Assembly: GCF_003019035.1 (NCBI RefSeq)
Contig: NZ_CP027447.1
Source of the DNA: Escherichia coli
GTDB lineage: Bacteria; Pseudomonadota; Gammaproteobacteria; Enterobacterales; Enterobacteriaceae
DNA length: 64,000 bases
Direction: 5' to 3' (one strand)
Part shown: in pieces, positions 48,001-51,000 of the stretch
Layout: the number at the start of each line of letters is the position of its first letter
Numbering within the stretch: position 1 is the stretch's first letter
Position numbers: made by a program

Positions 48001-51000
48001 GACAGCCTGCCACCGGTGGAGTGGCTGACGTATGGCAGCGGTTATCTTGCGGGAATGAAGCTGGGCGGAACGCCGCTGCTGGAGTACACGCGCGACAGGC
48101 TGCACCGCGAGACGGTACGCAGCTTCGGCGATAATGCATACGAACTGACCAGCACATACACCCCCGCAGGGCAGTTACAGAGCCAGCGCCTGAACAGCCT
48201 GGTGTATGACCGTGACTACAGCTGGAATGACAATGGCGACCTGGTGCGCATCAGCAGCCCGCGACAGACGCGGGAATATGGCTACAGCGCCACGGGCAGA
48301 CTGGCGAGCGTTCACACCCTCGCACCAGACCTGGACATCCTCATCCCGTATGCCTCCGACCCGGCGGGAAACCGCCTGCCGGACCCGGAACTGCACCCGG
48401 ACAGTACACTCACGGCGTGGCCGGATAACCGAATCACCGAAGACGCGCACTACCTGTACCGCTATGACAGGTATGGCAGGCTGACGGAGAAGACGGACCG
48501 CATCCCGACGGGGGTGATACGGACGAACGACGAGCGCACCCACCACTACCACTACGACAGTCAGCACCGGCTGGTGTTTTATACGCGGATACAGCATGAG
48601 GAGCCACTGGTCGAGAGCCGCTATCTCTACGACCCGCTGGGCCGCCGGACGGGGAAACGGGTGTGGCGTCGCGAGCGTGACCTGACGGGATGGATGTCGC
48701 TGTCGCGTAAACCGGAGGTGACATGGTACGGCTGGGACGGCGACCGGCTGACAACGATACAGACCGACACCACACGTATCCAGACGGTATACCAGCCGGG
48801 AAGCTTCACGCCACTTATCCGTATCGAAACAGAGAATGGTGAGCTGCATAAAGCGCAGCGGCGCAGTCTGGCGGAGAAGTTGCAGCAGGAAGGAAGCGGG
48901 GACGGTCACGGCGTGGTGTTCCCGACTGAGCTGGTGCGGCTGCTGGACAGGCTGGAGGAGGAAATCCGGGCAGACCGCGTGAGCAGTGAAAGCCATGCGT
49001 GGCTGGCACAGTGCGGGCTGACGGTGGAACAACTGACAACACAGGTAGAACCGGAGTACACACCGGCACGCTCACTGCATCTGTATCACTGTGACCACCG
49101 TGGACTGCCGCTGGCGCTCATCAGCGAAGACGGCAATACGGCGTGGAGCACGGAATATGACGAGTGGGGAAACCAGCTTAACGAGGAGAACCCGCATCAT
49201 CTGTACCAGCCATACCGCCTGCCGGGGCAACAGTGCGATGAGGAGTCGGGACTGTACTATAACCGTCACCGATACTATGATCCGTTACAGGGACGGTATA
49301 TCACCCAGGACCCAATCGGGCTGGAGGGGGGATGGAATTTATACCAGTATCCATTAAATCCTGTTATTGATACCGATCCGCTGGGTTTGTGGGTTTGTGG
49401 GTTTTTGCGCTTCCAGCTATAGTTGAAGGCGTTAACTGGTTCTTAGTCGCCAGTGCGGCTGCGGGTGGCGCGGTTTTAGCGACTCCAAGTGATTCTCAGC
49501 AAACTAAAAAGAAAACAGAGAGCCTAACAAACTGTCCAACAATACCCCCCGAAGATCCATGTGATAAAAAAATTGATGACAGGTTATTAAAAAAAATGGA
49601 CATATCTGATCCCCATCAAGTGAAAAAAGATTGGATGGGCGACGGAGCTAAAATATCAAGGTTTGATCTATGTGGTTGTAAAGATGGTAGAGTGGTGATT
49701 AAGACTAAGGATCTTAATGCTAAAACCAAGGAATGCAAAGGAAACATTGCATCTCCTACTGAATATAACTGGAAATAATTTATGAAACTAACTGTTGAGT
49801 TACATGGTATAGACCCTGCGAAGGGTGAGTGGTTCAGTATATCAAAACATAAGTCTGATAATTACGATCATGATCTTTTATTATATATTATTAATAAAGT
49901 CTTAGATGAAGGTGCTGAATATAGTAGCAATGGGCTTGAAGGATTAAGGGCTCTTCATGTTGAATTATCAGTTGCAGTTATTGCTGATGAAGATGGTTTC
50001 AGACCTGCATTTGACCTTGATGCGCGAACAATCAGCAGACTTAGCGCCGCGGGCGCTTCTTTTGATTTCGACCCATATGTATAACTGGCAGAAGTAATAG
50101 TTTAGCGTAAAAAAACAAATGAAAAATACTTTGCTTATAAACAAAATCATTCGAGGTGCATCAAGGTGGTAAGTTTTCAATCCCTTGGGAGCATAGCTAA
50201 CTATGTGACCAAGAGTTTGAAAACGCAGCCAACATAGAGGTAAGGTGTTGTCGGCCTACGGCCTCCGCATAAAGGACTTTATACCCGCCCCGTAGAGGAA
50301 GATCGGACACAATTAATGGAGCAATTAATGCCAGCGTGTGGAGCGGGTGCTATGATGATCGGGCGCAAAAACGCACGTCGGGAAATGTAAGTTAACAGTT
50401 AGCGCACCGTTATCTTACATTGAACGCCAGCAGCAATTCACTCATGCTTGGCTTACTCTTAGGCAGTATGTATACAATAAATCTTAACCCGGTGTCGCTT
50501 GAACAAAAGGTGGTCATTCTGGTGGTCTTGACAAACTCAATTTTTAGGTTTAGCTTACCAATCAGCCAGTTAATGGCTACGGCGATCCCAGTCAGAGGAG
50601 CCAAATTCTAAAAATTTCGCTTGTATCGTGCAATGCAACTCATCTACATTAAGCATTGATTCTTTAACGAAGAGCGGGTTTGTCATCTTAAGCGCCCTCG
50701 ACCTTTATGGTTGGGGTCGTTTTGTTATGGACGCCGTCTACAGCTTTCCTGTCGAGAGTGAGAAGTTACGGTCATTTTTGTGCCACATAACCTTCTGCTG
50801 GCAAAGAGTTCAGCACTATCTTCTCTACTCCGTCCCTATATTCGTCACCATTGCCCCCTCGATTATAAAACTTGAGTAATTCAGTAGTCTCCCCTCTTGC
50901 AACTCACACCCAAAACTGCCTAACGAAAAGTTATTAATTTTCAATCATATTGCTATCAGGATTTATATTTTTTCGCTGTGCTAGAAAGGGCGCATTTATG

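What the first reader, a model, noticed from the sequence alone, without database searches (positions are those of the whole stretch)
49383..49398. 8-bp tandem duplication (GGGTTTGT x2) separates the Rhs core from its C-terminal toxin
Seen: the Rhs frame reads …[19 protein letters not shown] at 49422, while a 129-codon low-GC ORF lies in the +2 frame from 49389. Deleting one GGGTTTGT copy gives an in-frame fusion …[19 protein letters not shown]… with the full toxin. Established knowledge: Rhs toxins are delivered as C-terminal extensions cleaved after the core DPxGL motif. Inference: either recent inactivation of the effector, or an on/off switch by slippage at the short repeat; the toxin and immunity genes could still be expressed as an orphan pair from the GTG at 49389.
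Basis: partly seen in the sequence, partly recalled or inferred. Interest (0 to 1): 0.65.

Follow-up and report, generated by a model that had tools for sequence, protein, structure and literature searches.

The report
8-bp duplication breaks an Rhs toxin
In one clonal E. coli lineage an 8-base slippage duplication just after the Rhs self-cleavage motif has cut a bacterial contact-weapon protein off from its toxin tip; this is an ordinary recent gene inactivation, though a nearly identical isolate with the intact gene exists, so the change may be reversible.

Summary
TGGGTTTG occurs twice in tandem (49382-49397) plus a partial third copy (to 49404). The rhs frame stops at 49420-49422, ten codons after DPLGL, and a 129-codon low-GC ORF follows in the -1 frame.

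Comparative data settle the nature of the site:
- The same tip and immunity module has one copy and an in-frame 1375-aa Rhs in an E. albertii-type genome (L011).
- One E. coli isolate (L012/L013) has the same island and differs from the window over 10.1 kb only by these 8 bp.
- The truncated 1259-aa product is on 82 contigs from many independent assemblies, so this is a real, inherited frameshift and not an assembly error.

The toxin is a divergent Ntox33 domain and the immunity protein is weakly DUF4279-like.

Best reading: a recent slipped-strand duplication between two pre-existing TGGGTTT repeats inactivated toxin loading in a clonal lineage, while the immunity gene was kept.

I found no support for independent toxin expression or for programmed frameshifting: no Shine-Dalgarno sequence, no promoter-like site and no stimulatory RNA structure.

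One derived SNP shared by the one-copy isolate and some two-copy isolates hints at a second slippage event, possibly a reversion. That rests on a single site. No 0- or 3-copy alleles were found. An adaptive on/off switch is therefore unproven.

The parts
45643..49422 (+). Truncated rhs gene (1259 aa): DUF6531, RHS/YD repeats, Rhs core, then a 10-residue out-of-frame tail [10 protein letters not shown]
   Evidence: ORF list; translation; Pfam DUF6531 and RHS_repeat; precomputed PF20148, PF05593, PF25023 and PF03527 on the identical product; RefSeq WP_096987170.1 'RHS element core protein'
49309..49389 (+). Autocleavage signature: DPIGL (49309-49323), 17 residues, DPLGL (49375-49389)
   Evidence: Motif positions. 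The same arrangement (two DPLGL motifs 17 residues apart, catalytic Asp in the second, cleavage after it) is described for Rhs1 in PMC8636562
49382..49404 (+). Period-8 tract TGGGTTTG TGGGTTTG TGGGTTT. One 8-bp unit is extra relative to the intact allele, so any 8 bases within 49382-49397 can be called the insertion
   Evidence: Sequence; exact 8-bp gap in alignments to L002, L011 and L012/L013; copy counts across 12 loci
49420..49422 (+). Premature TAG stop created by the frameshift
49389..49778 (+). Stranded toxin tip (129 codons if started at GTG 49389): hydrophobic linker 49404-49484, Ntox33-like domain about 49569-49709, DPHQVK motif 49608-49625
   Evidence: Translation. Ntox33 PF15533 at E 0.0099 and 0.0044 for this sequence; 3 of 9 homologues at E<=0.001 and 8 of 9 at E<=0.1. 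[DN]xHxxK motif of Ntox33 from PMC3482391. Coordinates. RefSeq WP_137504569.1 'hypothetical protein'
49782..50084 (+). Putative immunity gene (100 aa), starting 4 nt after the toxin stop
   Evidence: ORF. Weak DUF4279 match, E 0.019, also marked weak in the precomputed hits. The identical protein is on 101 contigs. The Ntox33/DUF4279 pairing is reported for a Salmonella Rhs in PMC13304343
48893..50607 (+). Exchangeable tip module (3' end of core, toxin, immunity, about 520 bp downstream). It matches the rhs next to mtfA in L011 except for the 8-bp unit and one substitution
   Evidence: Sliding difference counts between window and L011: core 7-43 differences per 250 nt, and none from 48893 to 50607 other than the 8-bp unit and position 50108

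Best explanation
This is a recent loss-of-function frameshift in an Rhs polymorphic-toxin gene, made by slipped-strand mispairing.

The intact allele reads CTG GGT TTG TGG GTT TTT GCG (L G L W V F A). It already holds two TGGGTTT repeats 8 bp apart. Misalignment of the nascent strand on the upstream repeat re-copied 8 bases. This step is inferred from the sequence and the classical slippage model.

The insertion lies immediately after the second DPLGL motif and partly within it. Translation of the Rhs shell now ends ten codons later. The Ntox33-type toxin, which normally sits in frame after DPLGL and is enclosed in and cleaved from the shell, is no longer attached and so cannot be loaded or delivered. 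That consequence is inferred from established Rhs biology.

The immunity gene stays intact. The allele is fixed in a nearly clonal E. coli lineage that carries the island at tRNA-Asn. The tract is now about 3 units long, so loss of one unit would restore the gene exactly. One isolate carries that intact allele, either as a surviving ancestor or as a revertant.
For: Shown.
- The repeat and the two reading frames.
- The one-copy allele with an otherwise identical junction occurs in L002, L003, L008 and L011. L011 encodes an intact 1375-aa Rhs followed by the identical immunity gene.
- The exact in-silico repaired 1375-aa protein is encoded in GCA_903974165.1, in the same island context. That locus differs from the window over 10,128 bp only by the 8 bp, and from SCU-301 over 22.8 kb by one substitution, the 8 bp and one 1-nt indel.
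- The truncated product is on 82 contigs. Two copies are present in the window, SCU-301, six further assemblies and two metagenome contigs.
- Relatives from Salmonella and Pseudocitrobacter are fused after DPLGL. The orthologous island rhs in E. coli G3/10 is one continuous 1346-aa ORF.
- The toxin amino-acid sequence is unchanged relative to the intact alleles, so the lesion is young.

Literature.
- DPxGL marks the boundary between Rhs core and tip (PMC3150448).
- The tip is encapsulated and released by aspartyl autocleavage after the second DPLGL (PMC8636562).
Against: - No expression, protein or competition data exist, so loss of toxin delivery is inferred and not shown.
- The one-copy isolate shares a derived SNP (G at 41932) with two of the two-copy isolates. 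A single one-way mutation does not explain this without a second event.
- The delivery route is not established. No PAAR domain reaches significance (E 0.25), and no vgrG or Eag-type chaperone gene lies beside the gene.
Confidence: 0.8

Rival explanations
1. The tract is a contingency locus. Reversible gain and loss of the 8-bp unit switches toxin loading on (1 or 4 units) and off (2 or 3 units) at a rate high enough to be selected. The Rhs shell and the immunity gene stay in place in both states.
For: - Both states occur in a near-isogenic background.
- The one-copy isolate shares the derived G at 41932 with two-copy isolates L004 and L010, while other two-copy isolates and all three outgroups have C. 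With a single origin of G, this needs two slippage events.
- The tract is 23 nt of period-8 sequence, and four units would also restore the frame.
Against: - The evidence for a second event is one SNP. Back-mutation or within-clone recombination are alternatives.
- The split is about 82 contigs to 1.
- No 0-copy or 3-copy product is on record, and both metagenome hits have two copies.
- About 3 units is far fewer than in classical phase-variable repeats (my own knowledge).
- Other lineages broke the same gene in irreversible or different ways: an IS66 insertion in L008 and a G6-to-G5 change in L003. That looks like decay and not regulation.
Confidence: 0.12
2. The stranded toxin and the immunity gene are still expressed inside the cell from the GTG at 49389 or the TTG at 49395. 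They would act as an orphan, toxin-antitoxin-like pair, as reported for Salmonella rhs tips.
For: - The ORF is intact and unchanged.
- The immunity gene starts 4 nt after the toxin stop.
- In Salmonella, internal promoters and a CTG start near the region encoding PxxxxDPxGL give low-level toxin that behaves like a type II TA module (PMC7043789).
Against: - No Shine-Dalgarno pairing at either start: -2.0 and -3.1 kcal/mol against a background median of -1.7.
- No sigma-70-like site on the + strand between 48800 and 49389.
- Any start in the rhs frame upstream of the repeat meets the same frameshift.
- Orphan tips generally lack translation initiation signals (PMC3150448).
Confidence: 0.1
3. A programmed -1 ribosomal frameshift in the repeat restores a full-length fusion (...[14 protein letters not shown]...) in a fraction of translations.
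For: - By inspection, G GGT TTG at 49383-49389 fits the X XXY YYZ pattern in the rhs frame.
- The toxin frame is -1 relative to rhs.
Against: - No stable structure follows the site: z-score -0.21, and 77 of 200 shuffles fold at least as well.
- The heptamer is not a known efficient slippery site in E. coli (my own knowledge).
- The same heptamer is present in the in-frame alleles.
- All relatives encode the fusion directly in one frame.
Confidence: 0.03
4. The extra 8 bp is an assembly or sequencing artefact.
For: None found. The only related point is that the single-base G6-to-G5 lesion in L003 is of the kind that long-read errors produce. That concerns another locus.
Against: - The identical two-copy sequence occurs in a complete RefSeq genome, six other assemblies from different projects and two metagenome contigs.
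- The product is on 82 contigs.
- An 8-bp unit is not a typical homopolymer error.
Confidence: 0.01

Closest known systems
Rhs polymorphic toxins with a C-terminal tip after DPxGL (Dickeya, Salmonella and Photorhabdus Rhs; PMC3150448, PMC8636562)
   Same: DUF6531 plus YD/RHS repeats plus Rhs core. Two DPxGL motifs 17 residues apart. A low-GC variable tip followed by a small immunity gene. The tip module is exchanged between loci at near 100% identity while the cores differ.
   Different: In this window the tip is out of frame because of an 8-bp duplication, so the gene encodes a shell without cargo. The intact form exists in L011 and L012/L013.
Salmonella SPI-19 PAAR-RhsA-Ntox33 effector with DUF4279 immunity (CFSAN070114_4426/4425; PMC13304343)
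   Same: Same size class (1369 aa against 1375 aa repaired). Same predicted toxin family (Ntox33) and immunity family (DUF4279). Salmonella homologues of this tip are 52-64% identical.
   Different: The Salmonella effector lies in a T6SS cluster and has an annotated PAAR. This one lies in a tRNA-Asn island with no T6SS genes beside it, and PAAR is not significant. Both are predictions; neither toxin has been assayed.
Orphan rhs-CT/rhsI modules and their activation by recombination (PMC3150448, PMC3967940)
   Same: A toxin tip with no working link to a delivery domain, kept together with an intact immunity gene. Silent but potentially reactivatable.
   Different: Orphans are 5'-truncated fragments downstream of a main rhs gene, and homologous recombination reactivates them. 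Here the full core is contiguous, and the only lesion is 8 bp that replication slippage could remove.
Slipped-strand frameshift hot spots at short tandem repeats, such as the lacI CTGG x3 hot spot
   Same: Gain or loss of one unit of a short tandem repeat of a few copies gives a frameshift. The gain makes the tract longer and more prone to loss.
   Different: The unit is 8 bp. The site lies at a domain boundary of a toxin gene, so the mutation removes the cargo and leaves the carrier protein whole.

Membership tests
Rhs / YD-repeat polymorphic toxin | YD/RHS repeats and an Rhs core domain forming the shell | tested here: met
   Pfam DUF6531 at 5e-18 and RHS_repeat at 1.5e-5 in residues 1-400. 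Precomputed PF05593, PF25023 and PF03527 on the identical 1259-aa product.
Rhs / YD-repeat polymorphic toxin | C-terminal aspartyl autocleavage signature: two DPxGL motifs about 17 residues apart | tested here: met
   DPIGL at aa 1223-1227 and DPLGL at aa 1245-1249, with 17 residues between them. Compared with PMC8636562. Cleavage itself was not tested.
Rhs / YD-repeat polymorphic toxin | Variable toxin domain fused in frame after DPxGL | tested here: not met
   In the window the frame stops ten codons after DPLGL. The feature is met in the one-copy alleles L011 and L012/L013, so the window holds a frameshifted member.
Rhs / YD-repeat polymorphic toxin | Cognate immunity gene immediately downstream | tested here: inconclusive
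   A 100-aa ORF starts 4 nt after the toxin stop and always travels with this tip. The DUF4279 match is weak, E 0.019. Neutralisation was not tested.
Rhs / YD-repeat polymorphic toxin | Link to a delivery system (PAAR, VgrG, Eag chaperone for T6SS) | tested here: inconclusive
   PAAR_motif scores E 0.25 and 1.2, not significant, although the N-terminus reads KPAARQGD. No vgrG or DUF1795 gene lies beside the gene. The rest of the genome was not available.
Ntox33 (PF15533) toxin domain | Match to the family HMM | tested here: inconclusive
   This sequence scores E 0.0099 and 0.0044. Among 9 aligned homologues, 3 reach E<=0.001 (best 3.5e-5) and 8 reach E<=0.1. No NCBIfam hit.
Ntox33 (PF15533) toxin domain | Motifs [DN]xHxxK and DxxxD; alpha+beta fold (PMC3482391) | tested here: inconclusive
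   DPHQVK fits [DN]xHxxK, and H, K and a later D are invariant in the alignment. No clear DxxxD is present; the sequence has DLCGCKD. The AF2 model (pLDDT 79.7) has 2 helices and 3 strands. No PDB neighbour (best E 1.9) and no PDB sequence hit.
Phase-variable contingency locus (simple-sequence repeat switch) | Repeat tract in the coding region whose unit number sets the reading frame | tested here: met
   1 or 4 units are in frame; 0, 2 or 3 units are out of frame.
Phase-variable contingency locus (simple-sequence repeat switch) | Frequent unit-number differences among closely related isolates and within populations | tested here: inconclusive
   One one-copy contig against about 82 two-copy contigs. 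No 0- or 3-copy product on record. One SNP suggests a second slippage event. Variation within a culture cannot be tested with these tools.
Programmed -1 ribosomal frameshift | Slippery heptamer plus downstream stimulatory structure, with the two-frame arrangement conserved in relatives | tested here: not met
   A heptamer-like G GGT TTG is present by inspection. No structure follows it (z -0.21). Relatives are single-frame.
Orphan rhs-CT/rhsI module | 5'-truncated rhs fragment lying downstream of, and separate from, a main rhs gene | tested here: not met
   The complete core is directly contiguous, and the only difference from an intact gene is 8 bp. True orphan-like fragments of this tip may exist elsewhere (P0032-P0034 and L002).

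The most novel reading that the evidence does not exclude
The period-8 tract is a true reversible switch. The lineage toggles between an armed Rhs (one unit) and an empty Rhs shell (two units) that may still serve as a structural part of a secretion apparatus, with immunity kept in both states. The one-copy isolate, which shares a derived SNP with two-copy isolates, would then be a natural revertant.
Probability: 0.12. Interest if true: 0.65.

Novelty: new member of a known kind. Interest (0 to 1): 0.3.

Why it matters
- Annotation. RefSeq lists three ordinary genes here ('RHS element core protein' and two 'hypothetical protein' entries). The first two are really one effector gene split by a frameshift. 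Gene-content surveys would count this lineage as armed when it most likely is not.
- A natural experiment. The isolates differ by 8 bp, which gives an isogenic pair (two-copy strains against GCA_903974165.1) for three questions. Is the uncharacterised Ntox33 tip active? Does the DUF4279-like protein neutralise it? Does an empty Rhs shell still function?
- Pattern of decay. With the IS66 and homopolymer lesions in other lineages, this locus shows the toxin part being lost while the immunity gene is kept intact and identical. That fits immunity genes being retained as protection against neighbours.
- If reversion were shown, this would be an example of slippage-driven on/off control of an interbacterial toxin in E. 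coli.

Tried and rejected
- One search is invalid. I entered a sequence that was not the real repaired protein, so its negative result means nothing. I repeated the look-up correctly.
- Assembly error: rejected.
- 'Toxin normally separate from the core': rejected.
- Independent translation of the toxin ORF: no Shine-Dalgarno sequence and no promoter-like site. The consensus scan also flagged the repeat tract itself as 'terminator-like' (49375-49395). I regard that as a chance match, because it is simply the GT-rich repeat.
- Programmed frameshift: no stimulatory structure.
- Other copy-number alleles: the 3-copy (1263 aa) and 0-copy (1255 aa) products are not on record. A DNA pattern allowing 1-4 units found nothing in the species-representative genomes. 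It found only two-copy contigs of the same clone in metagenomes.
- Toxin function by structure: the PDB sequence search was empty. The AF2 model of moderate confidence has no Foldseek neighbour in the PDB. NCBIfam gave nothing for the toxin, and only a far-below-cutoff hit for the immunity protein.
- More informative SNPs to place the one-copy isolate: the left flank of L013 is identical to SCU-301. The right flank could not be fetched, so the tree question stays open.
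Full report
**1. The observation**

The window reads GATCCGC-TGGGTTTG-TGGGTTTG-TGGGTTT-TTGCGC at 49375-49410. The period-8 identity extends over 49382-49404, about 2.9 units.

- The rhs ORF 45643..49422 (1259 aa) ends ...[18 protein letters not shown].
- A 129-codon ORF runs 49389..49778 in the -1 frame.
- It is followed 4 nt later by a 100-codon ORF at 49782..50084.
- GC falls from 59.7% in the core to 40.8% and 38.3% in the two small ORFs.
- Removing one unit gives one 1375-aa ORF reading ...[19 protein letters not shown]....

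Perfect 8-bp tandem duplications are not rare in this window: 4 seen against 0.62 expected in shuffles. The repeat alone is therefore weak evidence. The comparisons below carry the argument.

**2. Where the window comes from**

The segment is 100% identical to E. coli SCU-301 (NZ_CP051751.1). That is the only one of 5,426 complete E. coli genomes with this tip. RefSeq annotates three separate genes there: 'RHS element core protein' and two 'hypothetical protein' entries, with no pseudogene flag.

The genes lie in an island beside tRNA-Asn. Its order is: integrase, a second integrase-domain gene, an HTH gene, a 153-aa gene, rhs, tip, immunity, a giant invasin-like gene, then a family-9 glycosyltransferase before shiA and amn.

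The window is a sister strain and not SCU-301 itself. Left of 38716 it carries a prophage where SCU-301 has zinT and msrQ.

**3. The extra unit is a real insertion in a real lineage**

- The truncated 1259-aa product is recorded on 82 contigs from NCBI and ENA assemblies. The 129-aa or 127-aa tip ORF is on 55 and 28 contigs.
- Two units are present in the window, SCU-301, six other assemblies (L004-L007, L009, L010) and two metagenome contigs (L014, L015).
- These loci are almost identical. Across 20.3 kb they show 0-3 substitutions, apart from a cluster inside the repeats of the invasin-like gene.

An assembly artefact is excluded.

**4. The intact allele exists**

*Same tip in other backgrounds.*
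- A search with the tip found a 197-aa product that is 100% identical and reads straight through ...[19 protein letters not shown]... (P0001).
- Its DNA (L002) aligns to the window with one exact 8-bp gap at the repeat. The sequence is otherwise identical from 49231 to 49621.
- L011 (AP014855.1) encodes an intact 1375-aa Rhs followed by the identical immunity gene. The database names for this protein cluster say Escherichia albertii, and mtfA in L011 is 80% identical to the E. coli gene.
- L011's core differs from the window by 4-17%. From 48893 to 50607 the only differences are the 8 bp and one substitution.

*Same island, same species.*
- The exact in-silico repaired protein is encoded in GCA_903974165.1 (L012/L013) in the same island.
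- That locus differs from the window over 10,128 bp only by the 8-bp unit.
- It differs from SCU-301 over 22.8 kb by one substitution, the 8 bp and one 1-nt indel.

*Wider relatives.*
- More distant relatives in Salmonella and Pseudocitrobacter also carry the tip fused after DP(L/K)GL.
- The orthologous island rhs of E. coli G3/10 is one continuous 1346-aa ORF with a different tip.

The fused state is therefore ancestral and normal.

**5. What the parts are**

- **Core.** It has DUF6531, RHS repeats, YD-shell and Rhs core domains. It ends with DPIGL, 17 residues, then DPLGL. That is the arrangement shown for Photorhabdus Rhs1, where the Asp of the second motif catalyses C-terminal cleavage and the tip is enclosed in the shell (PMC8636562). 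DPxGL is the accepted boundary between conserved core and variable tip (PMC3150448).
- **Tip.** A hydrophobic linker is followed by a small domain that matches Ntox33 weakly on its own (E 0.004-0.01) and better at family level: 3 of 9 homologues at E<=0.001 and 8 of 9 at E<=0.1. It carries DPHQVK, which fits the [DN]xHxxK motif of Ntox33 (PMC3482391).
- **Tip structure.** An AF2 model (pLDDT 79.7) is alpha+beta but has no PDB neighbour. The activity is unknown. A recent in-silico survey lists RNA as the target for a Salmonella PAAR-Rhs-Ntox33 effector whose neighbour is a DUF4279 protein (PMC13304343).
- **Immunity candidate.** The 100-aa ORF here matches DUF4279 weakly.
- **Delivery.** PAAR is not significant at the N-terminus, and no T6SS gene lies nearby, so the delivery route is open.

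**6. Mechanism**

The intact sequence C-TGGGTTTG-TGGGTTT-TTGCG already holds two TGGGTTT repeats 8 bp apart. Slipped-strand mispairing between them explains a clean 8-bp duplication. This is inferred, not observed.

The result is a shell with both cleavage motifs and a 10-residue nonsense tail. The tip is left without a carrier. Because the tip normally reaches targets only as part of the Rhs protein, delivery should be lost. This too is inferred.

The toxin ORF carries no further change relative to the intact alleles. The lineage is nearly clonal, so the event is recent.

**7. Rival readings**

- **Independent expression.** Neither possible start has Shine-Dalgarno pairing: -2.0 and -3.1 kcal/mol against a background median of -1.7, with the rhs start at -5.4. 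No sigma-70-like site lies upstream. Salmonella rhs tips can be made at low level from internal promoters and a CTG start (PMC7043789), so I cannot exclude it. Nothing here supports it.
- **Programmed frameshifting.** A G GGT TTG heptamer is present, but no structure follows it (z -0.21). Relatives are single-frame.
- **Switch.** The tract could lose or gain units, and 1 or 4 units are in frame. The only parsimony-informative site among the loci is 41932. The one-copy isolate shares G with two-copy L004 and L010. The other two-copy loci and all three outgroups have C.
  - With one origin of G, this needs two slippage events: a gain followed by a precise loss, or two separate gains.
  - This is a hint that the site is hot. 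It rests on one SNP, and back-mutation or within-clone recombination are alternatives.
  - Against an adaptive switch: the split is about 82 contigs to 1; no 0- or 3-copy products are on record; only two-copy contigs turn up in metagenomes; and the tract is short.

**8. Context that favours decay**

The same effector gene is broken differently elsewhere.
- L008 has an IS66-family insertion at about nt 3385 of rhs.
- L003 has a G6-to-G5 deletion between the two DPxGL motifs. This could be a sequencing error.

In all of these loci the immunity gene is intact and identical.

**9. Verdict**

The natural intact allele now proves it.

The best explanation is an ordinary, recent, lineage-specific loss-of-function frameshift in an Rhs-Ntox33 effector, with the immunity gene retained. 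Reversibility is mechanistically plausible and faintly suggested by one SNP, but an adaptive on/off switch is not shown.

This is a new member of a known kind. The interest is modest. The main value is an annotation correction and a ready-made isogenic pair for experiments.

Noticed in passing
L003 9400-9600 (equivalent to window 49326-49331); L008 6555-9254: The same Rhs-Ntox33 gene is broken independently in two other genomes. L003 has a G6-to-G5 deletion between the two DPxGL motifs, giving a stop after 1237 aa; this could be a homopolymer sequencing error. L008 has an IS66-family insertion at about nt 3385 of rhs. The immunity gene is intact and identical in both.
   Followed up: partly
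window 48893-50607 against L011 9120-10830; window 45000-46640 against L011 17918-19557: The E. coli gene looks chimeric. Its tip module is essentially identical to the rhs next to mtfA in the E. albertii-type genome. Its 5' core and upstream region are closer (96%) to that genome's second, island-borne rhs than to the first (92%). This suggests a recent tip swap by recombination.
   Followed up: partly
window 34921-38715: The window is not SCU-301. Left of 38716 it carries a prophage end (823-aa YdfE-like ORF at 34921..37392, integrase at 37654..38679) at tRNA-Ser, where SCU-301 and GCA_903974165.1 have msrQ and zinT.
   Followed up: partly
window 50950-59007, especially 54060-55355: A giant invasin/intimin-like gene (2685 codons from TTG; IAT_beta, Big_1 and Invasin_D3 domains) has 689-bp internal repeats that are 89% identical. 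L006 shows 12 clustered substitutions at 54386-55263, and L014 shows a length difference of about 609 nt there. This suggests gene conversion or repeat-number change among the repeats.
   Followed up: no
window 41932: A C/G polymorphism in the island, just beside the start of a 65-aa ORF on the minus strand. G is derived and is shared by L004, L010 and the one-copy isolate L013. This is the only informative SNP for ordering the one- and two-copy alleles.
   Followed up: yes
window 45619: SCU-301 lacks a T that is present in the window and in all other loci, 24 nt upstream of the rhs start codon. It is not in a homopolymer, and its effect on expression is unknown.
   Followed up: no
L002 1-1440; proteins P0032-P0034: The same tip and immunity module (one-copy allele, one synonymous change) sits on a short Logan contig directly beside amn and shiA genes that are only 80% identical to E. 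coli. Related products begin with an unrelated N-terminus (MESRKTLPV...) joined to the last part of the Rhs core. These may be orphan-type fragments in another host.
   Followed up: partly
window 1862, 32800, 52177: Three other perfect 8-bp tandem duplications occur in the window. The one at 52177 lies inside the invasin-like gene, next to a SNP at 52174 in L009.
   Followed up: no
L016 (E. coli G3/10) 4343-9114: A related island in a probiotic E. coli strain carries an intact 1346-aa Rhs with a different tip, followed by a tetratricopeptide-repeat protein. Its HTH gene is annotated as frameshifted.
   Followed up: no
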